Below are positions 2,514 to 14,391 of a DNA stretch of 19,119 bases, piece by piece (position 1 is the stretch's first letter; the number at the start of each line of letters is the position of its first letter). The translations under genes were made by a program, and so were the position numbers. The notes under the pieces were generated by a model. It had not been told where the DNA came from, searched no databases, and was given only the letters and a program-made list of their open reading frames with translations. Source of the DNA: a virus; the UHGV virus genome UHGV-0349885; one strand, given 5' to 3'.

Positions 2514-2683
2514 TATGCAATCATTATCTTTCATTGCCGTTTCTTTTTGTGTTTCTTCTTATTCAATAAGTTGCGGTTTCTTCAATTGTGTGCATTGTTC
2601 CTTTTTTTTCGCTTTTTTATCGCCAGTATTCTGGCAAAAGGAACCAGCGCATGGACTAGAAAAATTTGTATTGGAGTGCTTGT

Positions 2684-3916
2684 ATGTCGGTGAAGCCTCT
2701 TACTGCATCAGAGGTAAAAAGCGCCAGGCCACGAGAGAAAGATTACGCTCTGTATGATGGGTTTGGGCTTTTGTTTTATGTGTCAAAAGCCGGTAGTAAA
2801 TCGTGGCGTTTTCGTTATGTACAACCTTTTACGAAGAAGCGGCAAACATACACTATAGGGCGATACCCGGATTTCACACTGGTTGAAGCCAGAGAAGAAC
2901 GCGATAAGCTGCGCAGATTGCTGGCACGGGATATAGATCCGTTATCATACCGGGCAGAAAAACGACTTGAGGCTAAAAGAAAGCACTTACAGACGTTTGG
3001 TGCTATTGCAATTGAATGGTTTAATTTTAAGAAAAAAGGTGATTTGCGGCTGTCGACTTTACAAACAATAGAGGAATTATTGAACAGACATATAATTCCT
3101 GTATTCGGAAATATGTACTTACATGATATGACCGCGCCAGTGGTTATTTCACTGCTTAATCAATTTTCTGATCGTAATGCTGTACTGGCTAAAATGCTGT
3201 CAAAAATTAATGAAATAATGAATTACTGTGTTAACTCTGGAGTGATTAAAAACAATCCGCTATCAACAATAAGAAAGGCATTTGTAATAAAAAAAGATAC
3301 ACCATTAAAAGCATTACCAGTTGAACGGTTATCAGAATTTTTGAACTGGTGGGAGACCACAAGTAATATCTCTATGAGATGCTCTCTTTTGTTCCAGATT
3401 GTCACTATGGTAAGACCATGTGAAGCAAGGGAGGCAAAATGGGAAGAAATTGATTTAGAAAATTGTATCTGGACAATTCCCCCTGAAAGAATGAAGTGTG
3501 GACGTGAACACGTAGTTCCGCTTTCACGGCAAGCCGTGGATATTTTAAGTGAAATGAATAAAATAAAATGTGGTAGCTATATATTTTTTTCTCCAAAGAA
3601 TCCGGGGAAAGCTATATCAAGCGTGTTGCGTCATAAGTGTTTCAGAGAGGGGCCATTTTATGGTGTTGCAACTGCTCACGGATTCCGGGCTATGTGGAGT
3701 ACGTTACTCAATGAAGAAGGGTTTAACCCAGATGTTATTGAGGCAGCATTGGCCCATAAAAGCGGCGATGCTATTCGTGATATTTATAATCGCTCAAAAT
3801 ATTTTGAGCAACGTAAGATCATGATGCAATGGATTGGTGATTTTGTTGATGATGCCAGAAAGGGAATTATCCGCCGTTCTGGTGGTCATCAGGGGCTAAA
3901 AGTAGTGAATATGTGA
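2684..3916 (+). CDS. int: Tyrosine site-specific integrase, P4-type
   Basis: ATG at 2684 with GGAG 8 nt upstream (ORF track begins at an upstream TTG, 2666). N-terminus MSVKPLTASEVKSARPREKDYALYDGFGLLFYVSKAGSKSWRFRY matches the P4-integrase N-terminal arm-binding domain; C-terminal region has HGFRAMW and RDIYNRSKY consistent with catalytic His/Arg/Tyr. Confidence 0.9.
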   Translation: MSVKPLTASEVKSARPREKDYALYDGFGLLFYVSKAGSKSWRFRYVQPFTKKRQTYTIGRYPDFTLVEAREERDKLRRLLARDIDPLSYRAEKRLEAKRKHLQTFGAIAIEWFNFKKKGDLRLSTLQTIEELLNRHIIPVFGNMYLHDMTAPVVISLLNQFSDRNAVLAKMLSKINEIMNYCVNSGVIKNNPLSTIRKAFVIKKDTPLKALPVERLSEFLNWWETTSNISMRCSLLFQIVTMVRPCEAREAKWEEIDLENCIWTIPPERMKCGREHVVPLSRQAVDILSEMNKIKCGSYIFFSPKNPGKAISSVLRHKCFREGPFYGVATAHGFRAMWSTLLNEEGFNPDVIEAALAHKSGDAIRDIYNRSKYFEQRKIMMQWIGDFVDDARKGIIRRSGGHQGLKVVNM

Positions 3917-3922
3917 GGCAAT

Positions 3923-4132
3923 ATGAGCACTAACGGCAATATTCTATTTACCAAAGACGTGATGGCAGAGCTTCGCTACGGTGCAATGAGTGCGTTTTAC
4001 GCTTTCATGAACGATGAAAAAAATAAATTTCCACGCCCCTTTAAGATTGGGCGACGCAACGCATGGCATCGTGATGATGTTGCATCGTGGCTGGAAAGAC
4101 AACGAAAACAAGCTAATGAATATCGTCAATGA
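3923..4132 (+). CDS. alpA: AlpA/Xis-family small DNA-binding protein (putative excisionase / transcriptional regulator)
   Basis: 69 aa, immediately after int, GAGG Shine-Dalgarno; sequence FTKDVMAELRYGAMSAFYAFMNDEKNKFPRPFKIGRRNAWHRDDVASWLE fits the AlpA/Vis/Xis HTH pattern; followed by a terminator. Confidence 0.7.
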   Translation: MSTNGNILFTKDVMAELRYGAMSAFYAFMNDEKNKFPRPFKIGRRNAWHRDDVASWLERQRKQANEYRQ

Positions 4133-4140
4133 TTGATATA

Positions 4141-4164
4141 CCCCGCGCAATGCGGGGTTTTTTG
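4141..4164 (+). terminator. Rho-independent terminator after alpA
   Basis: Hairpin CCCCGC-gcaat-GCGGGG (4141-4157) followed by TTTTTT. Confidence 0.7.
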
Positions 4165-4178
4165 TATATGAGGTAAAA

Positions 4179-4760
4179 ATGATGAATAAAAATATTGCCG
4201 TGACGGGCAAGGGTGACGCACGTCATGTGAAAAAAGTCTGTGATATTCGTGATCTGGTCGTTCTGCGCTTTGATGGCGTGAGCGTTCGCGTGGTGTATCT
4301 GAACGGCGATCCGTGGTTTGTTGCAAAGGATGTCTGCGCTGCGCTGGAACTGACCAATTCGCGTACGGCGTTGCAGATGCTTGATGATGATGAAAAGGGA
4401 GTAAATTTAACTTACACCCCCGGAGGAAATCAGAATATGAGCATTATCTCTGAGTCAGGTTTCTACAAACTAATAGTCCGCAGCCGCAAAGCAACGACGC
4501 CTGGCACATTTGCTCATCGTTTTAGTAACTGGGTATTCAGAAATGTGATACCGGGTATCAGAAAAACGGGGGCTTATGGTATCCCGTGGGGTGCATTACA
4601 GGATTTTTCCCGCCGCAAAGAGCAATATCAGATAAGTGCCAGCGAGAAGGGGAGGGCGCTACAGGCATGTAAGCGCAAAAAACGTGAACTGGAGGAAGAA
4701 GAAAAAAGGCTGATACGTGAATATCAGCCTGAGTTTTACTTTGGTGAGCGTATTCAGTAA
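4179..4760 (+). CDS. BRO-N / KilA-N domain protein (phage antirepressor-like)
   Basis: 193 aa; N-terminal region LRFDGVSVRVVYLNGDPWFVAKDVCAALELTNSRTALQMLDDDEKG ... IRKTGAY matches the conserved BRO-N antirepressor motif; GAGG SD; charged coiled-coil-like C-terminus. Confidence 0.75.
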   Translation: MMNKNIAVTGKGDARHVKKVCDIRDLVVLRFDGVSVRVVYLNGDPWFVAKDVCAALELTNSRTALQMLDDDEKGVNLTYTPGGNQNMSIISESGFYKLIVRSRKATTPGTFAHRFSNWVFRNVIPGIRKTGAYGIPWGALQDFSRRKEQYQISASEKGRALQACKRKKRELEEEEKRLIREYQPEFYFGERIQ

Positions 4761-5040
4761 CCACACGCGGTGCTGATTATACGGTACATCGTGTTAACCG
4801 AGAAGCTACCCACCAGCAAGGCAAAATCTTCTGCTAAAAAATGACATATGACCAGTCGTCCAGAAAGCATGAAATTTTACAAAAATGGAAAATGAAGATT
4901 TTTATTGTGCTAGTGGGTAAAAACAAAAAGCGCCCCGTTGCCGGAGCGCCCTTGCGAACAATTAACCTGCTGCGAAAAAATTGGATCAGTGCAAGGAAAT
5001 TATATCAACTGTGTGAAGAAGCGCCACAATTGCCGGATAA

Positions 5041-5073
5041 CAGGCAAAGAAAAGGCCACCTGTCACGGTGGCC
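5041..5073 (-). terminator. Minus-strand rho-independent terminator
   Basis: Perfect 7-bp stem GGCCACC/GGTGGCC (5054-5060 / 5067-5073) with 6-nt loop; on the minus strand it is followed by TTTTCTTTG; it lies downstream of the minus-strand regulator gene. Confidence 0.5.
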
Positions 5074-5392
5074 CTTCAACACAAATTGCGCGTTATCCCC
5101 AACGCATGAGCATCGCCAACAATGCCATATTTGCGGCTGGTGGGCAAAGCCTGAGCGATCCTGTGATTACAGGAACTACGGCATTGTCTCGGTTAGGTAG
5201 TGCTCAACTTTTTTTCAACTCTACATCGCAAGCACGCCGTAATAAATCGCCCTTATCGTTTGAGCAAAGACTATTTTTCTCAAAGCATGATATTAAGAGA
5301 AAGATTGTGATAATTAAAGCAACCATCATTGGTACATGTTTTTTTAATTTTAACATCTTTTACTCCTATGATTATCGCCATCGTTCTTCATG

Positions 5393-5590
5393 TTATGACG
5401 TGATTAATGATTTCTCGGATTCACTGGCCTTGCGCCGCTGGCGATATTCAACTTCTCGTTTTAATGCCGCAGTAACAAATTGCCCCGTACTTTCGCCAGG
5501 CATTTTTACCGCCTCAACATTGTTCATAACTTCATGCGGAACCCTTGCCGCAACGGTTTGTGATTTTGCGTTTACTGCTTTTGTCGCCAT
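5393..5590 (-). CDS. Small putative DNA-binding regulator (candidate repressor of the element; possibly ribbon-helix-helix-like)
   Basis: 65 aa, ATG at 5590 with GAGGGG SD; divergently oriented from the operator/promoter cluster at 5641-5692. Fold assignment is by eye only. Confidence 0.5.
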   Translation of the reverse strand: MATKAVNAKSQTVAARVPHEVMNNVEAVKMPGESTGQFVTAALKREVEYRQRRKASESEKSLITS

Positions 5591-5640
5591 GTGGTGTACC
5601 CCTCATAAAAAACAAATGCAGTATGCAGGAAAAAAAATAA

Positions 5641-5692
5641 GTGTTCAACACTTGACGTGTTTAACACCTGGGTTTAAATTGGTGTTCAACAC
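5641..5692. promoter_or_regulatory. Divergent promoter/operator region: three palindromic operators GTGTTCAACAC (5641-5651), GTGTTTAACAC (5657-5667), GTGTTCAACAC (5682-5692) overlapping a rightward sigma70-like promoter (-35 TTGACG 5652-5657, 17-bp spacer, -10 TAAATT 5675-5680)
   Basis: Three copies of an 11-bp perfect palindrome GTGTT-N-AACAC seen directly; they sit between the minus-strand regulator gene and the plus-strand early operon. Confidence 0.6.
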
Positions 5693-5789
5693 CTTGTTGG
5701 CGCAAGGTGCAGAAACGACGAAACCCGGCAGTGCGCTAACACTAACCGGGCTTCTAACCACCAACGATAGCGAAAGTATCGAGGCAGCT

Positions 5790-5993
5790 ATGAGAAATCA
5801 TACCACACACCCGCAAGGGCGGGACTCGCACGACCTGAATAAATACATCTGGCGTTTTATCGCCCTGAGCACGGCACAACCGCGCGTGATTACCATCGAG
5901 GCCACCAGCGAACAGGAAGCGCGTCAGCAATCTCCGGCTGGCTGCGTGATGGTATTCGCTGCCCGTATTCGCCAGGGGTCACATCATGCGTAA
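5790..5993 (+). CDS. Small early protein, Icd-like (P4 host cell-division inhibitor family) by motif
   Basis: ATG 5790 with GAGG SD 5 nt upstream; 67 aa; motif YIWRFIALS...RVITIEATSEQEARQQ...VFAARIRQG recalled as characteristic of Icd-like proteins of P4-type elements. Family assignment from memory only. Confidence 0.5.
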   Translation: MRNHTTHPQGRDSHDLNKYIWRFIALSTAQPRVITIEATSEQEARQQSPAGCVMVFAARIRQGSHHA

Positions 5994-6447
5994 AAACCGC
6001 TTGCAAAAAATTATCACGGGGCTGTATGCTTCCCCCGTCGCCCACATGGCGACCGGGTTTGACAGCCTGAATACATCTGGCGGACAGCCGCCCACATCCG
6101 ATAAGCGGTTTTTTTGTGTCCGTAAACCTACCCATACCCGCATTATGGCGGGGCGTAACGGGGGAGCCTTTGTGCTCGCTGGTTTCCAGATGACCAGTCT
6201 GTCAACCCTGTTACGTCTCGCCACCATGTTTGACAGCGTAGTAGCGAGACTCCTTAAAATTCATCTGGGAGCCTTTCACATGGCTGTATCCGCACGCCCT
6301 TATTTTGTCTGGCGCTTTATGCAGTGCCTGACAGACAGCATTGCAATATTCACCGTTACCGCTGCCACTGAGCGCGAAGCACGTGCACAGCTGCCGCACG
6401 CACATCTGATTTTTGTCGCCCGTATTCGTCAGGGGGTAGGCTTATGA
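5986..6447 (+). CDS. Icd/Ash-like paralog (153 aa) carrying the same C-terminal motif
   Basis: Start overlaps the previous stop; C-terminus YFVWRFMQCLTDSIAIFTVTAATEREARAQLPHAHLIFVARIRQG is a clear paralog of the 5790-5993 product. Confidence 0.5.
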   Translation: MRKNRLQKIITGLYASPVAHMATGFDSLNTSGGQPPTSDKRFFCVRKPTHTRIMAGRNGGAFVLAGFQMTSLSTLLRLATMFDSVVARLLKIHLGAFHMAVSARPYFVWRFMQCLTDSIAIFTVTAATEREARAQLPHAHLIFVARIRQGVGL

Positions 6448-6677
6448 GTCAGGAAATCACACTACAACAGGCAGCAGAACGCGCCCACCAAATCGAAGTT
6501 ATTTGCGCACTGGCAGAGGATTACCCTGGCATGATGACCGACAGCGAATCAGGGGCAATCATCGGCTTACTTAAACGCCTTAGCGGTGAGGTCTGCGTAT
6601 TCCTGAGCGATGAACAGGAAAGAAGAACGCTTATTTCTAACGAAAAAAAATGCGGAGGGGTACACCATGTGCAATAA
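6444..6677 (+). CDS. Hypothetical small protein (77 aa), translationally coupled in early operon
   Basis: ATG overlaps the preceding stop (ATGA); GGGGG SD upstream; no recognisable family. Confidence 0.5.
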   Translation: MSQEITLQQAAERAHQIEVICALAEDYPGMMTDSESGAIIGLLKRLSGEVCVFLSDEQERRTLISNEKKCGGVHHVQ

Positions 6678-6888
6678 CATCCGTCCGGACGCAGCAGCCG
6701 CCGCGCTCACTACGCTGATGCACGCGCTTATCGATATTGAATGCACTGCAGAGCTTGCGCAGGGAGAAGAACAGAAAGACCGGACACAGTTCGCCCTGGA
6801 ATGTATCCGATACATCGCAACGCGGTCGCTGAATGAAGCTAAAAATATTCTTGTTGCTGATTGTGAAAATGGGGGGGGTTATGCGTGA
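6667..6888 (+). CDS. Hypothetical small protein (73 aa from ATG 6667; ORF track offers an upstream start at 6610)
   Basis: Strong SD GGAGGGG 7 nt upstream of ATG 6667; stop overlaps the next start in the 8-mer ATGCGTGA. Confidence 0.45.
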   Translation: MCNNIRPDAAAAALTTLMHALIDIECTAELAQGEEQKDRTQFALECIRYIATRSLNEAKNILVADCENGGGYA

Positions 6889-7114
6889 TGATCGTTTTAA
6901 TTCCCTGAAACAGGAATTTTCCGGCGTTCCTGATGATGCGGCTGATGCGCTTTCGTCAATGCCAGAACTTATTAGAGCGGCTTTTTTCTTACTTTCCACG
7001 AGAGAATATAAATCAACGGGGCTTGATGTACTGAATATCGCCGCCGATTATGCGGAATATGTGGCAGAGGCGCGTTATAGAAGAAAATTTCCTGAGGATG
7101 TAAGCCATGCGTGA
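6881..7114 (+). CDS. Hypothetical small protein (77 aa, MRDDRFNSLKQEF...)
   Basis: ATG 6881 inside the overlap 8-mer ATGCGTGA; acidic and helical; no recognisable family. Confidence 0.45.
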   Translation: MRDDRFNSLKQEFSGVPDDAADALSSMPELIRAAFFLLSTREYKSTGLDVLNIAADYAEYVAEARYRRKFPEDVSHA

Positions 7115-7268: not shown

Positions 7269-7346
7269 GCCTGTAATAATGGAACTGCAAGAAATAGATC
7301 TATTGCACGACAGATATAAAGAACAGCACACCGGAGAATAAAAATA

Positions 7347-7646
7347 ATGAAACTTAAATATTCTGGCTTAACTGCCAGTGGCAACACTCACCCTAAATTT
7401 ACGCGCGGCGATATTTACCGCGACCAGTACGGCGGCACGGTAATGATTAAGGGCGTGGAAGAACGGCGCGTAACCTACCGCCGTGAAGGTTACGAATATG
7501 ATTGCGTGATGCCTGTTTATCAGTTCCGGCGTGATTTTTCTCTGGTACAGACCGCGCCGCATAACGTGTCCACCAGCAACGCCAGGGCACGGGCAAACAT
7601 CCAGAAGCTGAAAACCATGATTAACGGATTCAGGGGTAAAAAATGA
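7347..7646 (+). CDS. Hypothetical protein (99 aa) immediately upstream of and coupled to the primase gene
   Basis: ATG 7347 with GGAG upstream; stop overlaps the primase ATG (ATGA); no recognisable family. Confidence 0.5.
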   Translation: MKLKYSGLTASGNTHPKFTRGDIYRDQYGGTVMIKGVEERRVTYRREGYEYDCVMPVYQFRRDFSLVQTAPHNVSTSNARARANIQKLKTMINGFRGKK

Positions 7647-9397
7647 AACTGGCACCGAACGTAAAACAGCAGTCACGCGGCATAAAACACAAAGAAACAG
7701 AAGTCATTATTTTTGCGGGTAGTGATGCCTGGTCACACGCAAAACAATGGCAGGAACATGACGCGCGTATGGCCGGAGATAATGAGCCTCCTGTGTGGCT
7801 TGGGGAGCAGCAGTTATCCGAACTGGATAAGCTGCAAATTGTGCCGGAAGGCAGAAAATCCGTGCGCATATTCAGGGCCGGATATCTTGCGCCAGTAATG
7901 ATAAAGGCGATTGGTCAGAAGCTGGCGGCGGCAGGCGTACAGGATGCAAATTTTTACCCTGATGGTATGCACGGTCAGAAGGTGGAGAACTGGCGCGAAT
8001 ATCTGGCCCGTGAGCGCCAGAATCTTTCTGATGGTCTGGTCATTGAGCTTCCGGTAAAGCAAAAGGCGCAACTTTCGCAGATGGCGGACAGTGAGCGCGC
8101 GCAGCTGCTTGCCGATCGCTTTGATGGCGTTTGCGTACATCCTGAAAGTGAAATCGTTCACGTATGGCGCGGCGGGGTATGGTGTCCGGTCAGCACAATG
8201 GAACTTAGCCGCGAAATGGTGGCGATCTATTCAGAGCACAGGGCCACTTTCAGCAAGCGCGTAATCAATAACGCCGTGGAAGCGTTAAAAGTTATTGCCG
8301 AACCAATGGGCGAGCCGTCCGGCGATTTGTTGCCGTTCGCCAATGGTGCGCTTGACCTGAAAACGGGGGAATTTTCCCCGCACACGCCGGAGAACTGGAT
8401 CACCACGCACAACGGCATTGAGTACACGCCACCAGCACCAGGGGAGAACATCCGCGATAACGCGCCAAACTTTCATAAATGGCTTGAGCACGCAGCCGGA
8501 AAAGACCCGCGCAAGATGATGCGTATATGTGCCGCGCTGTACATGATTATGGCGAACCGGTACGACTGGCAGATGTTTATTGAGGCCACCGGAGACGGCG
8601 GGAGCGGTAAAAGTACATTCACACACATAGCCAGCCTTCTGGCAGGGAAACAGAACACGGTAAGCGCTGAAATGACATCGCTTGATGATGCTGGTGGACG
8701 TGCGCAGGTTGTCGGGAGTCGTCTTATCGTCCTGGCTGACCAGCCGAAATATACAGGCGAAGGAACGGGCATCAAGAAAATCACGGGCGGTGACCCCGTG
8801 GAAATTAACCCGAAATACGAAAAGCGTTTCACGGCGGTAATCAGGGCGGTGGTGCTGGCGACCAACAATAACCCGATGATATTCACCGAACGGGCCGGAG
8901 GTGTGGCACGTCGTCGCGTGATTTTCCGTTTCGACAATATCGTCAGTGAGGCCGAAAAAGACAGGGAGCTACCGGAAAAGATCGCGGCTGAAATCCCTGT
9001 CATTATCCGCCGATTGCTGGCGAACTTTACCGACCCTGAGAAGGCACGGGCTTTACTACTGGAACAGCGTGACGGTGATGAAGCTCTGGCAATAAAGCAA
9101 CAGACGGATCCGGTTATTGAGTTTTGCCAGTTCCTGAATTTTCTGGAGGAAGCGCGCGGCCTGATGATGGGGGGCGGTGGCGATTCAGTGAAGTACACGA
9201 CCAGGAACAGCCTTTACCGCGTCTATCTGGCGTTTATGGCATACGCAGGCAGGAGCAAACCGCTAAACGTAAATGACTTTGGCAAGGCTATGAAGCCAGC
9301 CGCGAAAGTTTACGGACATGAATATATTACGCGGAAAGTTAAGGGAGTAACGCAGACTAACGCAATAACAACAGACGATTGCGACGCGTTTTTATAA
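7643..9397 (+). CDS. Replication initiator: DNA primase / SF3-type NTPase (P4-alpha / D5 family C-terminal domain)
   Basis: 584 aa; Walker A EATGDGGSGKSTF, then RLIVLADQPKY and KKITGGDPVEINPKYEKRFTAVIRAVVLATNNNPMIF typical of the phage/plasmid primase P4-family C-terminal domain; the iteron origin lies directly downstream. Confidence 0.85.
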   Translation: MKLAPNVKQQSRGIKHKETEVIIFAGSDAWSHAKQWQEHDARMAGDNEPPVWLGEQQLSELDKLQIVPEGRKSVRIFRAGYLAPVMIKAIGQKLAAAGVQDANFYPDGMHGQKVENWREYLARERQNLSDGLVIELPVKQKAQLSQMADSERAQLLADRFDGVCVHPESEIVHVWRGGVWCPVSTMELSREMVAIYSEHRATFSKRVINNAVEALKVIAEPMGEPSGDLLPFANGALDLKTGEFSPHTPENWITTHNGIEYTPPAPGENIRDNAPNFHKWLEHAAGKDPRKMMRICAALYMIMANRYDWQMFIEATGDGGSGKSTFTHIASLLAGKQNTVSAEMTSLDDAGGRAQVVGSRLIVLADQPKYTGEGTGIKKITGGDPVEINPKYEKRFTAVIRAVVLATNNNPMIFTERAGGVARRRVIFRFDNIVSEAEKDRELPEKIAAEIPVIIRRLLANFTDPEKARALLLEQRDGDEALAIKQQTDPVIEFCQFLNFLEEARGLMMGGGGDSVKYTTRNSLYRVYLAFMAYAGRSKPLNVNDFGKAMKPAAKVYGHEYITRKVKGVTQTNAITTDDCDAFL

Positions 9398-9410
9398 TTT
9401 TTTGCAATGG

Positions 9411-9640
9411 CTGTCTACCCTGTCTACCTGAGTAAAGAAAAATACATTTAATTCAGTATATTAACTTAGGTAGACAGCCTTTTTTCACTGTCTACCTACT
9501 ATCTACCCTCTCTACCTGATTTTACCTGAATCAGACAGGGAGGTAGATACGGGGTAGATAGTGGATAAAAGCACTCTACCCCGCTGAAAGCCGCGCCATT
9601 ACTGGCATGAGAGCCAGTAAGGTAGATAAGGTAGACAAGG
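9411..9640. repeat. Iteron-type replication origin: about 11 copies of TCTACC / GGTAGA (6 forward, 5 reverse) in AT-rich context
   Basis: Forward copies at 9414, 9423, 9491, 9502, 9511, 9575; reverse copies at 9469, 9542, 9553, 9621, 9630; immediately 3' of the primase gene, the usual ori position in PICI/SaPI-like elements. Confidence 0.75.
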
Positions 9641-9685
9641 GGAGGCACAACTCAAAACTTTTTAAACGAGGGGGTAAAAATAAAA

Positions 9686-9943
9686 ATGCGCACATCAGGA
9701 AAACTTAATAATCAGAAGAAGCAGCATAACCGCGCCATTGACCTTACAGAGCACTGGCTGAGAGTGGCGATAAAAATCATCGACCGCAACACGGGGGAAG
9801 GATACGCGAAAGCACATCCCGACCTGATAAGCGCATTCATGACCACGGCGGCGGCAAACTTTGCCACGCTGACAGAACGGGAGATTGCCGAAGCGGAACA
9901 GGTAACAACCATCAACGTTAAAACCGGAGAGGTGGAATCATGA
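9686..9943 (+). CDS. Hypothetical protein (85 aa)
   Basis: ATG 9686 with GAGGGGG SD; stop overlaps the SSB-like start; no recognisable family. Confidence 0.5.
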   Translation: MRTSGKLNNQKKQHNRAIDLTEHWLRVAIKIIDRNTGEGYAKAHPDLISAFMTTAAANFATLTEREIAEAEQVTTINVKTGEVES

Positions 9944-10362
9944 CAGCACAGATAGCAGCTTACGGGCGGCTGGTGGACGACCCGCAGGTAAAACAGACCA
10001 GCAAGGGCACACCAATGACGCTGGCACGTATGGCGGTATCGTTGCCATGTAGTCAGGCGCAGGATGGGCAGGCTACGTTATGGCTATCGGTGATGGCATT
10101 TGGCAGACAGGCCGAAGCACTGGAAAGGCACCGCAAGGGTGAACTCCTGAGCGTGGCGGGTAACATGCAGATCAGCCAGTGGACTGGGCAGAACGGAGAA
10201 ACGCGGCAGGGCTGGCAGGTTATCGCAGACAGTGTAATCAGTGCGCGAACGGCGCGACTGGGCGGCAAAAAAGGTCAACTGGGCCAGGCTACTGACGCGC
10301 TGAACAGGGCAAAACAACAGGCGGGGAATGATGATCCGTACGGGGATAACATACCGTTTTAA
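9940..10362 (+). CDS. ssb: Single-stranded DNA-binding protein (SSB-like)
   Basis: 140 aa; OB-fold-like N-terminal region aligns by eye with E. coli SSB (LVDDPQVKQTSKGTPMTLARMAVS / LWLSVMAFGRQAEALERHRKGELLSVAGNMQISQWT); C-terminal acidic tail ends DDPYGDNIPF, like the SSB DDDIPF tail. Confidence 0.8.
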   Translation: MTAQIAAYGRLVDDPQVKQTSKGTPMTLARMAVSLPCSQAQDGQATLWLSVMAFGRQAEALERHRKGELLSVAGNMQISQWTGQNGETRQGWQVIADSVISARTARLGGKKGQLGQATDALNRAKQQAGNDDPYGDNIPF

Positions 10363-10377
10363 GCGACGAGTGACAGA

Positions 10378-10400
10378 AGCCGGAGCAATCCGGCTTTTTT
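10378..10400 (+). terminator. Rho-independent terminator after ssb
   Basis: Stem GCCGGA/TCCGGC (10379-10384 / 10389-10394), loop GCAA, T-run 10395-10400. Confidence 0.65.
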
Positions 10401-10448
10401 ACGGGTCCTCCTGGCGGGGTGGGCCTGAACACGGGGCGGGAGGCGCGG
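10401..10448 (+). other. Degenerate cos-like remnant (cosQ-like ACGGGTCCTCCTGG ... ACGGGGCGGGAGGCGCGG) lacking an intact cosN 12-mer
   Basis: Aligns with the cosQ/cosN region of the three intact cos sites, but GGGCGGCGACCT is replaced by GGGCGGGAGGCG; preceded by the same terminator-then-cosQ arrangement as at 12818-12857. Confidence 0.4.
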
Positions 10449-10580
10449 AAAAAAGCGCATTTTTGTGATTTTATCGTCATCATCATCATGAGCGTAATTT
10501 ATTGTTTTTAATTGTTTTGATGCAAAAAAGATGATGGTTGTGGTTAATTTTTGTTCGACATCTTTGCAGGCAGATAAAAA

Positions 10581-10616
10581 AGCCCGATAAGGTCAGAGGT
10601 GGCTTATCGGGCTTTT
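10581..10616. terminator. Strong hairpin with flanking A- and T-runs (possible bidirectional terminator)
   Basis: Perfect 11-bp stem AGCCCGATAAG/CTTATCGGGCT (10581-10591 / 10603-10613), preceded by AAAAAA and followed by TTTT. Confidence 0.5.
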
Positions 10617-10692
10617 GCATATGAGGCTTTTTGGTGCACTGACACACATGATCGGGATAATCATTTCATAATTTGCAACACAACTCAATATC

Positions 10693-10742
10693 ATTGCACA
10701 AAATGCAATACTGATTATAATCAGAGCTGGATGAACATCCAG
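10693..10742 (+). promoter_or_regulatory. Candidate promoter of the element capsid operon with three palindromes: ATTGCA-N5-TGCAAT (10693-10709), TGATTATAATCA (10713-10724), CTGGATG-AA-CATCCAG (10727-10742); -35 TTGCAC 10694-10699, -10 TATAAT 10716-10721
   Basis: Consensus -10 with 16-bp spacer seen directly; palindromes overlap the -35, -10 and +1 regions; AAGAGGAA SD and ATG 10778 follow. Confidence 0.4.
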
Positions 10743-10777
10743 TTATGATTTTTTAAGTCAAAGAGGAATTTCTTACT

Positions 10778-10984
10778 ATGGCTGAAGAGAAAAAAGGCGG
10801 TGTTTCGGTGTACATAAGCCCCGACATCGTAAAGGCGCTCAAGGAACGCCACCAGCAGAACGTAAAAGCAGGCATTGCGGCAGGACTTGATCCGCTGGCG
10901 ATGGTTGAGCCGTCAACAGGCTGGCAGGTACGCGCCTATTTACGCGCGGCGCTGGGTATGAATCAGGTTCACGGGGGTGAATAA
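10778..10984 (+). CDS. Hypothetical small protein (68 aa), first gene of the element capsid module
   Basis: ATG 10778 with AAGAGGAA SD; stop overlaps the capsid-gene start (TAATG); no recognisable family. Confidence 0.5.
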   Translation: MAEEKKGGVSVYISPDIVKALKERHQQNVKAGIAAGLDPLAMVEPSTGWQVRAYLRAALGMNQVHGGE

Positions 10985-12039
10985 TGACAGGCAAAGCAAC
11001 GGCACTTAACACTAACCAGCTTTTCATGTACCTGAATCGCGGGGATATTGCGGATTTTAAATTCAACCCTCTGTTTACTACGCTGTTTTTCCCGAACGTG
11101 GCGACATTCAGCACGCAAAACATCATGCTGGATACCCTGGACATTGAAGAAGTCACCATGTCGGCGTTTTGTTCGCCTATGGTTGGCAGCCAGGTACAGC
11201 GCGATAAAGGGTACGAAACCAGCACAATTAAACCTGGCTACATGAAGCCAAAGCACGAAATCGATCCAACAAAAACCATCATGCGCATGGCTGGAGAAGA
11301 TCCGGCACAGCTTAACGACCCTACCTACCGCCGTATGCGCCTGATTACTGGCAACATGCGCCGCCAGGTAAACGCCATTAAAGCGCGCGTGGAATGGCTG
11401 GCGGTGAATGCGATAACGACCGGAAAAAACATCATTGAGGGCGAAGGCATAGAACGCTATGAAATCGACTGGAAAATACCGGAAAACTGCATCATAGAGC
11501 AGGCCAAGGGTAAAAAATGGTCCGAGCAGGATAAAGACATGCACGACCCAATCTATGACATCGAGCTTTATGCTGATCAGGCTGGTTGCCCCGCAAACGT
11601 CATGATTATGGGCGCTGAGGTATGGCGCACGTTACGCAGCTTTAAAAAATTCCGTGAGCTGTACGATCTTTCCCGTGGTTCAGAGTCCGCCGCCGAACTG
11701 GCCTGTAAAAACCTGGGCGAAGTGGTGAGCTTTAAAGGCTATCTGGGCGATATTGCCCTTATCGTCTATTCCGGCAAATACACTGACAGCGACGGCACAG
11801 AAAAATATTTCCTTGAGCCTGATTTGCTGGTTCTGGGCAACACCAACAATAAAGGGCTGGTGGCCTATGGTGCGATTATGGATCAGGACGCAGTAAGAAC
11901 GGGCGCAACGCAAAACATGTTTTACCCGAAAAACTGGATTGGGGACGGCGATCCGGCGATTGAGTACGTGCAGACGCACAGCGCACCGCAGCCGGTTCCG
12001 GCAGATATTCGTAAATTTGTTACCGTCAAAATTGGTTAA
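10984..12039 (+). CDS. Major capsid protein homolog (lambda gpE-like), element-encoded and diverged from the prophage copy
   Basis: 351 aa; matches lambda gpE (from memory) at FKFNPLFTTLFF (lambda FKFDPLFLRLFF), PGYMKPKHEIDP (PGYVKPKHEVNP) and C-terminal YPKNW..GDPA...SAP; N-terminus differs from the prophage gpE start at 19064. Confidence 0.85.
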   Translation: MTGKATALNTNQLFMYLNRGDIADFKFNPLFTTLFFPNVATFSTQNIMLDTLDIEEVTMSAFCSPMVGSQVQRDKGYETSTIKPGYMKPKHEIDPTKTIMRMAGEDPAQLNDPTYRRMRLITGNMRRQVNAIKARVEWLAVNAITTGKNIIEGEGIERYEIDWKIPENCIIEQAKGKKWSEQDKDMHDPIYDIELYADQAGCPANVMIMGAEVWRTLRSFKKFRELYDLSRGSESAAELACKNLGEVVSFKGYLGDIALIVYSGKYTDSDGTEKYFLEPDLLVLGNTNNKGLVAYGAIMDQDAVRTGATQNMFYPKNWIGDGDPAIEYVQTHSAPQPVPADIRKFVTVKIG

Positions 12040-12050
12040 CGGGGGATTCT

Positions 12051-12386
12051 ATGGACACTCCATACATTGAGTTATTTGCAGGCAGTCAGCAGGTCGCCAC
12101 GACGCTGGTACATTTTGCCGCTGATGCTGGCGTTATTCAGGAATTTACCCCGCTGATGCTGGCGGACAATGGCGAGTTTAAGCCGTGGGATGGTAAGGAA
12201 TCTGGCAAGGCTGTTTATCTGACCTCGTACCCTGTGGACACGTCAAAGCAGAAATCAGCACAGTGTTACAAGACGGGGATATTCAATATTGCCGCCGTTA
12301 ACTGGCCTGAGAGCGTCGACACCGATGCGAAAAAATGCGCCGCCTTTGCGGGTTCTGGCGTATCCGTTCAGCCGCTGGCCCGATAA
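12051..12386 (+). CDS. Head decoration protein homolog (lambda gpD-like), element-encoded
   Basis: 111 aa; shares TPLML..WDG..YKTGxF..WPES..KK.AAFAGS with lambda gpD and with the prophage gpD at 18659-19006. Confidence 0.75.
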   Translation: MDTPYIELFAGSQQVATTLVHFAADAGVIQEFTPLMLADNGEFKPWDGKESGKAVYLTSYPVDTSKQKSAQCYKTGIFNIAAVNWPESVDTDAKKCAAFAGSGVSVQPLAR

Positions 12387-12398
12387 GCAGGGGGAACG

Positions 12399-12812
12399 AT
12401 GGCAACGAATGAAAGCATCATGACGCTACCGCTGGCGAGTAAATTTAAAGCCGAAGCGCGGGCAATGGCTGACAGAGGTTTATCAACCTATGAGGCCGTA
12501 TATCAACTAAACAAACTGGAAGAGCAGGACAAGCCGCGCGCTGATGCGATTATGGCGCTTGATGAATCTGGCGACTATCAGCCGCTGTTACGTGCAATGG
12601 CAAACGTGCCTTGTATCGATGTTGGTACGGCTAAAAGCATCCTTAGCATGACCATAGAGCAGGAACGTCCGAAGGTTGCGCCGGAACTTACTGCAGCCTT
12701 TGAAAACTTTATGGACATGCACAGCCCGCAAGCCGTATCAGCTGGCATGGCATACGATGGCAGAAACCAGGGCGATGACGGCGACATCGATCGCATACTG
12801 AAAACCATCTGA
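12399..12812 (+). CDS. Scaffold-like protein (Nu3 / gpC C-terminal-domain homolog), element-encoded; candidate capsid-size-redirecting scaffold
   Basis: 137 aa; C-terminus TAAFENFMDMHSPQAVSAGMAYDGRNQGDDGD parallels the prophage gpC-Nu3 C-terminus TALFEHFMANHSPAAVRGGVSQTSADGDAD; middle region resembles one of the internal repeats of the prophage protein. Confidence 0.6.
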   Translation: MATNESIMTLPLASKFKAEARAMADRGLSTYEAVYQLNKLEEQDKPRADAIMALDESGDYQPLLRAMANVPCIDVGTAKSILSMTIEQERPKVAPELTAAFENFMDMHSPQAVSAGMAYDGRNQGDDGDIDRILKTI

Positions 12813-12817
12813 GACAA

Positions 12818-12842
12818 GGCCGGAGAAATCCGGCTTTTTTTT
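12818..12842 (+). terminator. Rho-independent terminator after the element capsid module
   Basis: Stem GCCGGA/TCCGGC (12819-12824 / 12829-12834), loop GAAA, eight-T run 12835-12842. Confidence 0.65.
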
Positions 12843-12966
12843 ATGGGTCCTTTCCGGCATATGGACCCGTTACGGGGCGGCGACCTCGCGGGTTTTCGCT
12901 ATTTATGACGTTTTTCCGTGAAGGTGACACCACCACCACTTGATTAATATTTAACCATGCGGTTAA
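12843..12966 (+). other. Element cos site A (forward): cosQ-like GGGTCCTTTCCGG 12845-12857, cosN GGGCGGCGACCT 12875-12886, I2-like CGCGGGTTTTCGCTATTTATGA, divergent cosB with TTAACC-atgc-GGTTAA
   Basis: About 75-bp core near-identical to the prophage cos and to lambda cos; flanking cosB differs from the prophage cosB; lies directly upstream of the Nu1-like gene at 12976. Confidence 0.85.
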
Positions 12967-12975
12967 GGTAACATT

Positions 12976-13416
12976 ATGATTGATAAAGCTTGTTTTGTAA
13001 GTCAGCAGGAAATAGCTGAACATTTCAAGGTTAACAGAACCACTATTCGCGCATGGACCAAACAGGGGATGCCGTATCTTAATGCGGATCGCGGAAAGTC
13101 TGGCGGTTATCACATCGGGCATACATTGCTTTGGTCTTCAGGTAAAAGCCGTCTTGAGGCCATCAGATATCACGTAGAAACCAGTGCGCTGGAAAAAATT
13201 ATGTTTGCCAGGCTGCTTTCATCTGAGCGTGACGAGTACTCCAGTGAAGAAACAGAACATCGATTTGATGAAGGTTTGCAGATTTACGGCTATTCACCGG
13301 AAGATGTGAGCAAGGCACGAAATAAAATGGCTGGCTTTCTGGCTGGGTGGCGTCATGCCGTAAGCGTTCGCCGTGCCAGCATGGAACAATCAGTCGTTAC
13401 AGAACAGCAAAGTTAA
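12976..13416 (+). CDS. Terminase-small-subunit-like protein (Nu1 N-terminal wHTH homolog with unrelated C-terminus); candidate packaging-redirection factor
   Basis: 146 aa; N-terminus VSQQEIAEHFKVNRTTIRAWTKQGMPYLNADRGKSGG aligns with prophage Nu1 [34 protein letters not shown]; positioned just 3' of cos-A, as Nu1 is relative to cos. Confidence 0.7.
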   Translation: MIDKACFVSQQEIAEHFKVNRTTIRAWTKQGMPYLNADRGKSGGYHIGHTLLWSSGKSRLEAIRYHVETSALEKIMFARLLSSERDEYSSEETEHRFDEGLQIYGYSPEDVSKARNKMAGFLAGWRHAVSVRRASMEQSVVTEQQS

Positions 13417-13445
13417 AAATCACTTTCTGTTACGCCATCAAATAC

Positions 13446-13597
13446 GCAATACAACAACCACGTATTTTTTTAAAACTATTTGATTCAATTAGCATTTTTT
13501 TATTTTTAGCATCAAAAAAACACTATCAGGTTGTTGTATTGCTCTTTATTTTTACTTAGTTATCAAATGGATATGACAAACAATTAAACAACAACCT
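13446..13597. repeat. Perfect 14-bp inverted repeat GCAATACAACAACC (13446-13459) / GGTTGTTGTATTGC (13529-13542) around a 69-bp AT-rich spacer, plus a third ACAACAACC copy (13589-13597); candidate cosB R-elements of cos-B
   Basis: Repeats read directly from the sequence; they occupy the cosB side of the inverted cos-B in an R3 / AT-rich / R2 / R1-like layout. Confidence 0.5.
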
Positions 13598-13610
13598 CCC
13601 TCTAAAAAAG

Positions 13611-13680
13611 CTCATAAATAGCGAAAAACCGCGAGGTCGCCGCCCCGTAACGGGCCATAATTCCAGGAAGGACCCGACGA
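13611..13680 (-). other. Element cos site B (inverted orientation): cosN reverse-complement AGGTCGCCGCCC at 13634-13645, I2-like 13611-13633, cosQ-like GGAAGGACCC 13666-13675
   Basis: Reverse complement matches the cosQ-cosN-I2 core of cos-A and the prophage cos almost base for base. Confidence 0.8.
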
Positions 13681-13709
13681 CACCAGACTATCAGAGCGAT
13701 GGGGGCACA

Positions 13710-13991
13710 ATGACAGAAGCCGAACTACTGGGATTAATCCGCCGCGTTACCGGAATCAGCCAGCAGCATGACGAACAGGCCACACAGCCGGACAGCGTGA
13801 CAGCCGAAAATTACGCGCGTGTTGTTGCTGAGGTGATGCGCCGTGATGGTATCCAGCTTAATGATATGGATATGCGCAACATACGGATCCGCGTTCTTGA
13901 AATGCTGGCCTACAATCGCCGCGTGGCACTGTATCGTGAAACGGAGAAAATTACGTACCACTGGAAGAAGCCGGAGCGGTTACGGCGTTAA
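13710..13991 (+). CDS. Hypothetical protein (93 aa)
   Basis: ATG 13710; no recognisable family; followed immediately by the GTGAC repeat array. Confidence 0.45.
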   Translation: MTEAELLGLIRRVTGISQQHDEQATQPDSVTAENYARVVAEVMRRDGIQLNDMDMRNIRIRVLEMLAYNRRVALYRETEKITYHWKKPERLRR

Positions 13992-13997
13992 CTTGTG

Positions 13998-14041
13998 GTG
14001 ACATACCGTGACGGGAGTGACAACCAGTGACACACAGTGAC
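13998..14041. repeat. Array of five GTGAC(A) direct repeats at 9-10 bp spacing (starts 13998, 14008, 14017, 14027, 14037)
   Basis: Seen directly; helical phasing suggests same-face binding of one protein; the reverse complement TGTCACT resembles the lambda Int arm-type consensus (AGTCACTAT, from memory). Confidence 0.5.
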
Positions 14042-14391
14042 AAAAAAAGACGGTATTTAAATAGGGTGGGTGTTTAATACCCTAGGGGGATCGGAATCCC
14101 TACACCCCATTGCTTATGAGACCGCATTCCCCGTCAAATTTTTACACCCGCGAAATTAAAAAAATGCGTCACGCTGGTGGGTGTGATGCTGATATGGGGA
14201 TTTCCATAACCGAGATTAAGCAAAGAGCAAACTTGCCCCCTGTAGCCAAACATAGTAACCATCTAAGCCCCTTTTTTATCTTAATTTAGCTGATTTTTCC
14301 GTGTTTATACGGACTAGAATTTGTACCAAACGCAAAAGCGATGTCTTCTTTATTCCTTTAAATTCAATTTATTATCTTGCTTGTTTGCTTT

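What the first reader, a model, noticed from the sequence alone, without database searches (positions are those of the whole stretch)
2514..14391. Satellite architecture combining P4-type integration/replication with lambda-type cos packaging signals
The inserted element has a P4-type integrase, AlpA/Xis, BRO-N antirepressor-like gene, an operator-controlled early operon with Icd-like genes, a P4-alpha/D5-type primase followed by an iteron origin, and an SSB. It lacks terL, portal, protease and tail genes. It carries lambda-type cos sites rather than the P2-type cos used by P4. This fits a phage-inducible chromosomal island exploiting a lambdoid helper, here the very prophage it sits in.
Basis: partly seen in the sequence, partly recalled or inferred. 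Interest (0 to 1): 0.75.

Follow-up and report, generated by a model that had tools for sequence, protein, structure and literature searches.

The report
Phage satellite embedded in helper's terminase gene
An 11.9-kb phage satellite of the well-studied E. coli EcCICFT073 type sits inside, and splits, the DNA-packaging (large terminase) gene of a lambda-like prophage; this "helper-embedded" lifestyle is already described, but this insertion site and this integrase lineage were not found in the one published survey.

Summary
An 11,889-bp element, bounded by an 11-bp identity block CATATCTGGAC (2503-2513 and 14392-14402), splits the gpA-type terL of a phage-21-like lambdoid prophage. Joining the flanks restores an intact 642-aa TerL, and the empty site is common in E. 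coli.

It missed a lambda-E-type major capsid gene, a gpD-type decoration gene, a Nu3-like scaffold fragment, RppA and a C4 antisense immunity RNA.

None of this is a new kind. The replication and packaging modules are 93-97% identical to the model PICI EcCICFT073, whose two cos sites and Rpp mechanism are published. Embedding in a helper late gene is the HE-PICI configuration of Tommasini et al. 2023.

What looks new is narrower. The integrase scores only 92 bits (27% identity) against the founding HE-PICI integrase, where that survey required 400 bits. It carries different putative arm motifs. Its site, at the start of the GpA nuclease domain, is not among the terminase sites I could find named in that paper. 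Sampled relatives at 43-100% identity sit in at least six prophage head or packaging genes.

Verdict: new member of a known kind. Mobility is untested.

The parts
823..834 (+). cosN of the surrounding (helper) prophage, with cosQ upstream and its own cosB leading to Nu1
   Evidence: Exact GGGCGGCGACCT; sequence context; alignment with the element's two cos sites.
1011..1559 (+). Helper small terminase (Nu1 type)
   Evidence: Phage_Nu1 3.4e-81. It aligns to lambda TerS residues 1-98 at 1.4e-36, with Y50 and E65 conserved.
1531..2513 (+). 5' fragment of the helper terL (gpA type, ATPase domain). The frame runs on into the element and stops at 2757
   Evidence: (annotated 'incomplete; missing C-terminus').
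2503..2513 (+). attL identity block CATATCTGGAC
2653..2661 (+). GGACTAGAA, putative integrase arm-type site (P' arm), about 145 bp right of the core
   Evidence: Only two exact copies occur in the window. GGACTA-type motifs lie at the same place upstream of int in relatives.
2684..3916 (+). P4-family tyrosine integrase
   Evidence: Pfam. 27% identity and 91.7 bits to the 11capE integrase. 23% identity to the EcCICFT073 integrase. The identical protein always follows Nu1 plus a terL 5' fragment.
3923..4132 (+). AlpA/Xis-like small HTH protein, followed by a strong terminator-like hairpin at 4140-4158
   Evidence: Phage_AlpA 5.1e-4, 20.3 bits against a cutoff of 21. Xis_Gifsy_1 0.0025. Hairpin.
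4179..4760 (+). Bro-N domain protein
   Evidence: PF02498 4.9e-20.
5393..5590 (-). YlcI/YnfO-family small protein, transcribed divergently from the early operon; candidate operator-binding regulator
   Evidence: NF041551 2.9e-16; phrog_949. The regulatory role is inferred from position only.
5641..5692 (.). Three palindromic operators GTGTTNAACAC overlapping a promoter-like TTGACG-17-TAAATT
   Evidence: 3 found, 0.04 expected.
5703..6447 (+). Two tandem Icd-like units containing the C4-type immunity RNA system: a1/b1 target at 6024-6073 and C4 RNA at 6141-6228
   Evidence: Rfam RF01695 72.6 bits (gathering score 45) and RF03163 46.8 bits (gathering score 46.7). Icd-like domain.
7347..7646 (+). 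DUF4222 protein, conserved just upstream of the primase in this PICI group
   Evidence: same arrangement in relatives.
7643..9397 (+). P4-family primase with D5-type SF3 helicase domains (replication initiator)
9411..9640 (.). Iteron-type replication origin: about ten CTGTCTACC-like units in both orientations around an AT-rich core
   Evidence: Its position directly 3' of the initiator gene is as described for PICI origins in PMC6092414.
9940..10362 (+). Single-stranded DNA-binding protein
   Evidence: PF00436 4.7e-16.
10984..12039 (+). Lambda gpE-type major capsid protein homologue (counterpart of EcCICFT073 c1499)
   Evidence: Phage_cap_E 1.7e-50. 45% identical to the helper's own capsid protein.
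12051..12386 (+). gpD-type head decoration protein (same RefSeq protein accession as in EcCICFT073)
   Evidence: HDPD 2.5e-17. 35% identical to the helper gpD. WP_000380877.1 appears in both records.
12399..12812 (+). 137-aa protein resembling the C-terminal (Nu3/scaffold) end of the helper's gpC protease
   Evidence: 36% identity over 83 residues, 1e-10. phrog_53 'head maturation protease' positions 495-567.
12845..12975 (+). cos site on the + strand: cosQ, cosN at 12875-12886, and a satellite-specific cosB-like flank. Probable equivalent of EcCICFT073 cos1
   Evidence: It lies inside the block that is 97.2% identical to EcCICFT073. The assignment as cos1 is inferred.
12976..13416 (+). RppA (redirecting phage packaging protein)
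   Evidence: 142/144 identical to EcCICFT073 RppA. 5.7e-31 to the RppC structure 6HLK.
13604..13680 (-). Second cos site, inverted (cosN 13634-13645); probable equivalent of EcCICFT073 cos2
   Evidence: The same inverted pair is seen in EcCICFT073.
13710..13991 (+). 93-aa conserved protein of unknown function (phrog_1561)
   Evidence: also present in EcCICFT073.
14311..14319 (+). GGACTAGAA, putative integrase arm-type site (P arm), about 86 bp left of the core
14392..14402 (+). attR identity block CATATCTGGAC
14403..15348 (+). 3' fragment of the helper terL (nuclease domain), followed by gpW, portal, protease and gpD

Best explanation
Window 2503-14402 is an 11.9-kb cos-type phage-inducible chromosomal island of the EcCICFT073 family. 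It has swapped in a different integration module, and it resides inside, and co-oriented with, the large-terminase gene of a phage-21-like lambdoid prophage. [quoted passage not shown]

Likely cycle. Steps 1, 2 and 4 are inferred. Steps 3, 5 and 6 are shown for the near-identical EcCICFT073 modules in published work.
1. The element is kept silent by a C4-type antisense RNA and by a protein acting on the three GTGTTNAACAC operators.
2. On prophage induction, helper late transcription through Nu1 and the terL 5' fragment reads straight into int-alpA. No terminator-like hairpin was detected between them.
3. Int and AlpA excise the element.
4. Recombination at CATATCTGGAC rebuilds an intact terL, so neither partner can be packaged before the satellite is out.
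5. The element replicates from its iteron origin using its own primase-helicase and SSB.
6. RppA heterodimerises with the helper's TerS. This takes terminase away from the phage cosB and directs it to the satellite's cos1. Satellite concatemers are then packaged into helper-built heads. Four copies come to 47.6 kb, which is about lambda length.

The role of the satellite's own capsid, decoration and scaffold-like genes is unresolved even for EcCICFT073.
For: - Precise insertion with a restorable terL, and a common empty site.
- Gene content.
- 93-97% nucleotide identity to EcCICFT073 from 6412 to 13996, including the inverted cos pair. RppA is 142/144 identical. The decoration and scaffold-like proteins share RefSeq accessions with EcCICFT073.
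- The cosQ-cosN stretches align closely with the helper's cos.
- The helper carries a full late region, and its TerS has Y50 and E65.
- Co-orientation with terL, and no terminator-like hairpin found between 2514 and 2684.
- The identical integrase is listed in 124 blocks of the assembly collection. All 10 places shown have it 1.1 kb after Nu1, in prophages with differing lysis modules and differing satellite cargo.
- Integrases at 73%, 65% and 57-60% identity in Enterobacter, Buttiauxella, Salmonella and IMG/VR contigs sit at the same terL position.
- Published mechanisms: two cos sites and helper TerS dependence (PMC6092414); Rpp-TerS redirection (PMC6739421); HE-PICI excision following helper induction (PMC10111431).
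Against: - No experiment exists for this element. Excision, replication, packaging and interference are all inferred.
- RppA was tested with lambda and phi80 TerS, not with a 21-type TerS.
- The AlpA assignment falls just below Pfam's cutoff.
- The window carries a stop in a minus-strand ORF (about 5093-5356) that is intact in the AREA_492 record, and one small ORF is annotated as frameshifted there. Some decay is therefore possible.
- Only 2 of 5426 complete E. coli genomes carry this exact terL junction.
- In the published 11capE study no infectious particles were recovered.
Confidence: 0.85

Rival explanations
1. It is a P4-like satellite in the strict sense: a member of the P4 family that depends on a P2-type helper and merely happens to lie in a lambdoid prophage.
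For: The integrase has the P4-type arm-binding domain. The primase matches TIGR01613 'primase, P4 family'. A C4/CI-type immunity RNA and Icd-like genes are present, as in P4 and P1 immunity regions.
Against: No match to Psu, Sid or Delta appeared in Pfam, PHROGs or NCBIfam searches of the ORFs, nor in the RefSeq annotation. The cos sites are lambda type and match the surrounding prophage. The capsid genes are lambda E and D types. RppA targets lambda-type TerS. The late half is EcCICFT073.
Confidence: 0.03
2. It is an ordinary part of the prophage, either a mosaic segment or moron cluster or a decayed second prophage, rather than a discrete mobile satellite.
For: It carries phage-like genes (capsid, decoration, Bro-N, SSB) and lies wholly within a prophage. 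Automated tools would call it all one prophage.
Against: It has base-precise ends with an 11-bp identity block. The empty site is 100% identical in intact terL genes. A terminal int-alpA module points inward, and the GC content is distinct. The same modules sit at a chromosomal site next to phoQ in CFT073. The same integrase recurs at the same terL position in unrelated prophage backgrounds.
Confidence: 0.02
3. It is a dead-end or accidental insertion. A PICI landed off-target in terL, killed the prophage's packaging gene, and the composite is now a defective, immobile remnant with no adapted helper-embedded lifestyle.
For: HE-PICI integrases do make off-target insertions, and one relative here sits next to a LysR gene (L116). 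The terL junction is rare among complete E. coli genomes, 2 of 5426. The window shows a stop in one ORF that is intact in the near-identical record.
Against: The site recurs across many assemblies and several genera, with integrases 57-100% identical. The attP core matches the terL site exactly, and the insertion is always co-oriented with late transcription. int, alpA, primase, rppA and both cos sites are intact. The whole sampled integrase group targets late genes.
Confidence: 0.08
4. It is a capsid-forming PICI (cf-PICI) that builds its own heads and takes only tails from the helper.
For: It encodes a major capsid protein, a decoration protein and a scaffold-like protein.
Against: It has no terL, portal, protease or head-tail connector genes. 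cf-PICIs are defined by those genes (PMC10085698). EcCICFT073, with the same late genes, needs the helper TerS, and its packaged DNA was phage-sized.
Confidence: 0.02

Closest known systems
EcCICFT073, the model Gram-negative cos PICI of E. coli CFT073 (Fillol-Salom et al. 2018, PMC6092414; 2019, PMC6739421)
   Same: Same order of genes from the Icd-like region to the last ORF. Nucleotide identity is 95.7% over 6412-10268, 97.2% over 10576-13412 and 93.1% over 13604-13996. RppA is 142/144 identical. Both have two inverted lambda-type cos sites flanking rppA, an iteron origin after the primase, SSB, and E-type capsid and D-type decoration genes.
   Different: The integration module differs. The integrases are 23% identical, the alpA differs, and a Bro-N gene is present. 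EcCICFT073 sits at a chromosomal site next to phoQ, whereas this element sits in a prophage terL. The window lacks the PerC-family gene that follows SSB in EcCICFT073. The roughly 190-bp flank of the inverted cos (13412-13604) is not shared.
HE-PICIs, helper-embedded PICIs; founding member Eco567.11capE in E. coli NRG857c (Tommasini, Mageeney and Williams 2023, PMC10111431)
   Same: [quoted passage not shown] It shows the four-zone order: integration, Bro, replication, late. It carries its own capsid and decoration homologues. Gene order is syntenic with 11capE. Two co-oriented putative arm motifs flank the attP core at comparable distances, -86 and +145 here against -81 and +132 there.
   Different: The integrase scores 91.7 bits and 27% identity against the 11capE integrase, whereas the survey kept only matches of at least 400 bits. 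The putative arm motif is GGACTAGAA, not the doubled TGTATTGC. The target is the start of the GpA_nuclease domain of a gpA-type terL. The terminase sites I could find named in the paper and its supplement are all in Terminase_1-family genes (132 and 245/246), and this att core is absent from its attL and attR files.
Satellite phage P4
   Same: P4-family integrase and primase domains. An RNA-based immunity element of the C4/CI type. It carries the helper's cos type and depends on helper structural genes.
   Different: No match to sid, psu or delta was found. The cos is lambda type rather than P2 type. Packaging is redirected by Rpp rather than capsid size by Sid. The helper is a lambdoid siphovirus.
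Interrupted genes restored by excision of an integrated element ('regulated gene integrity'; active lysogeny)
   Same: A gene is split by an integrated element and rebuilt by precise excision at the moment it is needed (discussed for HE-PICIs).
   Different: The interrupted gene belongs to another mobile element, the helper phage, and the arrangement serves the satellite rather than the cell.

Membership tests
Gram-negative PICI (criteria of Fillol-Salom et al. 2018) | Size about 10-15 kb with specific att sites; int followed by alpA at one end, pointing inward | tested here: met
   11,889 bp between identity blocks. int at 2684-3916 is followed by a small HTH gene at 3923-4132. The AlpA profile match is marginal, at 20.3 bits against a cutoff of 21.
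Gram-negative PICI (criteria of Fillol-Salom et al. 2018) | Own replication initiator with the origin immediately 3' of it | tested here: met
   P4-family primase with D5 helicase domains. Iteron array at 9411-9640 directly after its stop codon.
Gram-negative PICI (criteria of Fillol-Salom et al. 2018) | No lysis, tail, portal or large-terminase genes | tested here: met
   ORF inventory, Pfam, PHROGs and the RefSeq annotation.
Gram-negative PICI (criteria of Fillol-Salom et al. 2018) | Helper-phage-dependent induction, packaging and high-frequency transfer; interference with the helper | not testable with these tools
   Needs induction and transduction assays. Shown only for the near-identical EcCICFT073 modules.
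EcCICFT073-type cos PICI with Rpp | Encodes an Rpp protein (TerS-like DNA-binding domain that heterodimerises with helper TerS) | tested here: met
   142/144 identity to RppA. 5.7e-31 to the RppC crystal structure sequence 6HLK.
EcCICFT073-type cos PICI with Rpp | Phage-like cosQ and cosN, but a cosB different from the helper's; two cos sites | tested here: met
   Two exact cosN 12-mers with conserved cosQ. Similarity to the helper's cos ends about 40 bp after cosN. The same inverted pair occurs in EcCICFT073.
HE-PICI (Tommasini et al. 2023) | [quoted passage not shown] | tested here: met
   terL is split at residue ~325. All key element genes are on the same strand as terL. Joining the flanks restores the ORF.
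HE-PICI (Tommasini et al. 2023) | Integrase belongs to the described HE-PICI clade (found as at least 400-bit TBLASTN matches to the 11capE integrase) | tested here: not met
   91.7 bits and 27% identity. Every sampled relative of the window integrase scores under 100 bits to 11capE, while the EcCICFT073 integrase scores 359. Cutoff taken.
HE-PICI (Tommasini et al. 2023) | Doubled TGTATTGC motif 81 bp upstream and 132 bp downstream of the attP centre | tested here: not met
   No TGTATTGC lies at those positions. Instead GGACTAGAA lies about 86 bp upstream and 145 bp downstream, with GGACTA-type motifs in relatives.
HE-PICI (Tommasini et al. 2023) | One of the 14 (15) mapped late-gene sites | tested here: not met
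   The terminase site names I found are Terminase_1_132 and Terminase_1_245/246. No GpA name and no CATATCTGG string occurs in the supplementary att files. Caveat: one supplementary table was truncated in the held copy, and I did not see the full list of 14 site names.
P4-like satellites | Capsid-size and helper-control genes sid, psu and delta; P2-type cos | tested here: not met
   No such family was hit for any ORF. No dedicated Psu, Sid or Delta profile search was run. The cos is lambda type.
cf-PICI (capsid-forming PICI) | Own terL, portal, protease and head-tail connector genes | tested here: not met
   Absent. Only capsid, decoration and a scaffold-like fragment are present.

The most novel reading that the evidence does not exclude
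The window's integrase represents a second lineage of P4-family integrases, separate from the published HE-PICI clade, that has specialised in prophage head and packaging genes.

Sampled members at 43-100% identity sit in:
- gpA-type terL, in E. coli, Enterobacter, Buttiauxella and Salmonella;
- a position just after a Terminase_2 small-terminase gene, presumably in another terL type;
- a Peptidase_S78 gene;
- a PF09950 major capsid gene;
- the gene next to a Pa193_gp24 gene;
- a DUF6651-adjacent gene;
- a 188-aa late gene (phrog_1072).

The nearest sampled outgroup, at 41% identity, is a chromosomal satellite.

Two integrases 95% identical, with near-identical arms, use terL (overlap CATATCTGG) and the phrog_1072 gene (overlap TCTCTTTTG). 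That looks like a recent retargeting event. If this holds, late-gene tropism evolved more than once, and embedding in the helper is a general, adaptive satellite strategy rather than a quirk of one clade.
Probability: 0.6. Interest if true: 0.5.

Novelty: new member of a known kind. Interest (0 to 1): 0.35.

Why it matters
The headline feature is not new. It is a textbook-like example of two published ideas joined together: the Rpp/cos piracy of EcCICFT073 and the helper-embedded lifestyle.

It has modest value in three respects:
- It adds the large terminase of lambda- and 21-type phages to the genes that satellites hold hostage. This is the enzyme both partners need for packaging.
- It indicates that helper embedding is not confined to the one integrase clade through which it was discovered, so published counts probably underestimate it.
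- It is a practical warning for annotation. Such composites are called as single "prophages with a broken terminase" and may be scored as defective when they could be fully inducible.

Tried and rejected
- tRNA scan of the window found none, so this is not a tRNA-targeted island.
- Search for the published HE-PICI arm motif TGTATTGC found only two exact copies, about 850-950 bp from attR and inside the cos2 flank, not at arm positions. I rejected them as integrase arms because relatives with other integrases share that region.
- A scan of one-genome-per-species contigs with an integrase alignment was swamped by generic P4-family integrases of 40% identity or less and returned no close relatives.
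- A single-protein scan of IMG/VR gave one locus. The alignment scan gave 12 useful loci.
- Pfam on the small early ORFs and on the 188-aa second target gene gave nothing.
- A literature search for HE-PICI work after 2023 found no paper describing this site. A search for newer work on the EcCICFT073 capsid genes found no functional assignment.
- I did not build a formal integrase phylogeny or predict any structure. Pairwise scores and genomic contexts were judged sufficient for the classification.
- I considered whether the two inverted cos sites were a novelty. They are not: cos1 and cos2 are described for EcCICFT073.

Full report
**1. What is in the window**

The window is a stretch of an E. 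coli lambdoid prophage. It is 99.45% identical over its full length to E. coli AREA_492, NZ_CP123335.1.

- The left part holds a lysis-module end, cos (cosN at 823-834), a Nu1-type small terminase (1011-1559) and the 5' part of a gpA-type large terminase.
- The right part holds the rest of terL (to 15348), then gpW, portal, protease/scaffold and gpD.
- Between them lies foreign DNA with lower GC, 0.34-0.43 at its left end.

**2. The insertion is precise**

The terL frame reads ...ITFHIWT and then diverges at 2514. It resumes at 14392 as FHIWTAYSP.... The sequence CATATCTGGAC is present at 2503-2513 and at 14392-14402.

Joining the flanks through it yields one open 642-aa TerL. GpA_ATPase spans residues 46-293 and GpA_nuclease spans 323-601. 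The element therefore sits at residue ~325, at the very start of the nuclease domain.

The reconstructed empty site occurs at 100% identity inside intact terL genes. 1918 of 5426 complete E. coli genomes have a match covering at least 80% of it. The segment is 97.6% identical to phage 21 terL. Lambda A differs from the 11-bp core by one base. The element is 11,889 bp long.

**3. Gene content, left to right, all on the terL strand unless noted**

- Integration: a P4-family tyrosine integrase, then a 69-aa HTH protein with a marginal AlpA match (20.3 bits against a cutoff of 21) and a weak Xis match, followed by a strong hairpin terminator.
- Bro zone: a Bro-N protein.
- Regulation: a divergently transcribed YlcI/YnfO-family gene. 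Three palindromic operators GTGTTNAACAC (5641-5692) lie over a promoter-like site, with 3 found against 0.04 expected. Two Icd-like units enclose a C4-type antisense RNA (6141-6228, 72.6 bits against a gathering score of 45) and its a1/b1 target (6024-6073).
- Replication: several small ORFs and DUF4222, then a P4-family primase with D5-type helicase domains. About ten CTGTCTACC-type iterons follow at 9411-9640, with 11 matches against 2.0 expected. SSB comes next.
- Late zone: a lambda-E-type major capsid protein (1.7e-50; 45% identical to the helper's) and a gpD-type decoration protein (35% identical to the helper's). A 137-aa protein resembles the C-terminal Nu3/scaffold end of the helper's gpC.
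- Packaging: a cos site on the + strand, RppA, a second inverted cos site, and a 93-aa conserved ORF.

There is no terL, portal, protease, tail or lysis gene. It omits the capsid, decoration and scaffold-like genes, Rpp and the immunity RNA.

**4. The cos claim**

The lambda cohesive-end 12-mer GGGCGGCGACCT occurs exactly three times in the window: once at the prophage's cos and twice in the element, at 12875 (+) and 13634 (-). Around each element copy the cosQ-cosN stretch, GGGTCCTT(T/C)C(C/T)GG...CCGTTACGGGGCGGCGACCTCGCGG(T/G)TTTTCGCTATTTATGA, aligns with the prophage's cos. Similarity stops where cosB begins. This is the published description of EcCICFT073: two cos sites with phage-like cosQ and cosN and a different cosB.

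**5. Identity with a known element**

Direct comparison with CFT073 (NC_004431.1, next to phoQ) gives 95.7% identity over window 6412-10268, 97.2% over 10576-13412 and 93.1% over 13604-13996. The same inverted cos pair is present. RppA is 142/144 identical. The decoration and scaffold-like proteins carry the same RefSeq accessions in both genomes.

For EcCICFT073 the following is published:
- The helper TerS is required.
- cos1 is needed for transfer, and deleting cos2 raises it.
- Packaged DNA is phage-sized.
- Deleting the capsid or decoration gene does not relieve interference.
- RppA binds TerS, blocks phage cos recognition and directs packaging to the satellite's cosB.

The helper TerS here aligns to lambda TerS residues 1-98 (1.4e-36) and keeps Y50 and E65, the residues whose mutation lets lambda and phi80 escape Rpp. 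I assign the + strand cos, which lies in the 97% block just upstream of rppA, as the likely cos1. This assignment is inferred.

**6. The embedded configuration is also known**

Tommasini, Mageeney and Williams (PMC10111431) described HE-PICIs. [quoted passage not shown] Their founding case is 11capE in a capsid E gene. For it they showed composite excision, then replication, then satellite excision. [quoted passage not shown] The window's element is syntenic with 11capE and fits their four-zone scheme. They also noted C4/isrK-type RNAs in such elements.

**7. What differs from the published HE-PICIs**

- Integrase. It is 27% identical (91.7 bits) to the 11capE integrase and 23% identical to that of EcCICFT073. 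The survey kept only integrases scoring at least 400 bits to 11capE. Every sampled relative of the window integrase scores under 100 bits to it.
- Arm motif. The published clade-specific doubled TGTATTGC motif, at -81 and +132 of attP, is absent. Instead GGACTAGAA occurs exactly twice in the window, co-oriented, about 86 bp before and 145 bp after the core. GGACTA-type motifs sit at the same place upstream of int in relatives.
- Site. The terminase sites I could find named in the paper are in Terminase_1-family genes. No GpA name and no CATATCTGG core occurs in its att files. One supplementary table was truncated in the held copy, and I did not see the full list of 14 site names.

**8. The site and the lineage recur**

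- The identical integrase is indexed in 124 blocks of the assembly collection. In all 10 places shown it lies 1.1 kb after a Nu1 gene, in prophages with different lysis modules and with varying satellite cargo.
- Integrases 73% (Enterobacter), 65% (Buttiauxella) and 59% (Salmonella) identical follow a Nu1- or DUF1441-type small-terminase gene at the same spacing. In the Salmonella locus a 333-aa GpA_ATPase fragment is annotated. In the other two the DNA before int still encodes the F-H-(I/V)-W codons of terL.
- Eight of nine IMG/VR loci at 57-60% identity follow a terL fragment ending ...RIASFWM. The ninth lies next to a LysR gene and looks off-target.
- More distant members are also in late genes. 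At 56% identity, a Peptidase_S78 gene. At 50% and 47%, just after a Terminase_2 small-terminase gene. At 51%, next to a Pa193_gp24 gene. At 50%, a PF09950 major capsid fragment. At 43%, next to DUF6651.
- A 41% relative in Pectobacterium is a chromosomal satellite.
- In complete E. coli genomes the terL junction is rare, 2 of 5426.
- Three further genomes carry a 95%-identical integrase with the same arms inside another late gene. That gene encodes a 188-aa phrog_1072 protein between the head-tail joining and baseplate genes. There the overlap is TCTCTTTTG instead of CATATCTGG. This looks like recent retargeting.

**9. Mechanism proposed**

Shown by sequence: the split and restorable terL, the co-orientation, the absence of a detected terminator between terL' and int, intact int, primase, origin, rppA and cos sites, and a complete helper late region.

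Taken from published work on near-identical modules: Rpp-TerS redirection, cos use and helper TerS dependence.

Inferred:
- Helper late transcription reads into int-alpA and triggers excision.
- terL is rebuilt only then, which delays all packaging until the satellite is free.
- About four genome copies (47.6 kb) fill a helper head.

The function of the satellite's capsid-related genes is open.

**10. Verdict**

The element is best filed as a new member of a known kind: an EcCICFT073-type cos PICI in the HE-PICI configuration. It differs by a terL target not found in the published survey and by an integrase lineage outside the published clade. Mobility is untested.

Noticed in passing
L111 (NZ_CP049201.1, E. 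coli PapRG-04-4) 15994-27147; also hits H37 and H38: An integrase 95% identical to the window's, with near-identical attP arms, is embedded in a different late gene. That gene encodes a 188-aa phrog_1072 protein between the head-tail joining and baseplate V genes, in a prophage with lambda-type head and P2-type tail genes. The overlap is TCTCTTTTG rather than CATATCTGG. That satellite carries a full Nu1-type TerS instead of Rpp.
   Followed up: partly
window 13451-13596: Three exact copies of GGTTGTTGT (0.20 expected) lie in the flank of the inverted cos site. This roughly 190-bp stretch (13412-13604) is the one part of the late region not shared with EcCICFT073. Two copies extend to GTTGTTGTATTGC, which resembles the TGTATTGC arm motif of published HE-PICIs. 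Function unknown.
   Followed up: partly
window 13995-14046: An array of five GTGAC units at about 10-bp spacing (TRF period 10) lies just after the last ORF. It is shared with relatives that have other integrases, but it falls outside the block shared with EcCICFT073. It may be a protein-binding array.
   Followed up: no
window 5093-5356 (-) and 6610-7114 (+): The minus-strand ORF annotated as intact in AREA_492 contains a stop codon in the window. A small early ORF is annotated as frameshifted in AREA_492. The window differs from that record by 101 mismatches and 4 gaps, so it comes from a close but not identical strain.
   Followed up: partly
window 1489-2757: The truncated terL frame continues 81 codons into the satellite and ends inside the integrase gene in another frame, overlapping the int start at 2684. 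Ribosomes translating terL' would arrive at the int start, so translational coupling is possible.
   Followed up: no
L006, L009, L011 at about 2288-3917 (prophages carrying the same satellite): Some helper prophages carry an extra gene pair between the lysis genes and Nu1. One matches Phage_P4_cII (PF26915). The other, on the opposite strand, is a Beta_protein (PF14350). This may be a moron or a defence cassette.
   Followed up: no
L116 (IMGVR_UViG_2737471855_000016) 1-1328: One relative of the integrase (58% identity, same arm sequence as its terL-embedded siblings) lies next to a LysR-family regulator gene instead of terL. This looks like an off-target integration.
   Followed up: no
window 10379-10400 and 12819-12840: Nearly identical hairpin terminators (GCCGGAG(C/A)AATCCGGCTTTTTT) close the replication block after SSB and the capsid block just before cos1. 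This suggests duplicated module boundaries.
   Followed up: no
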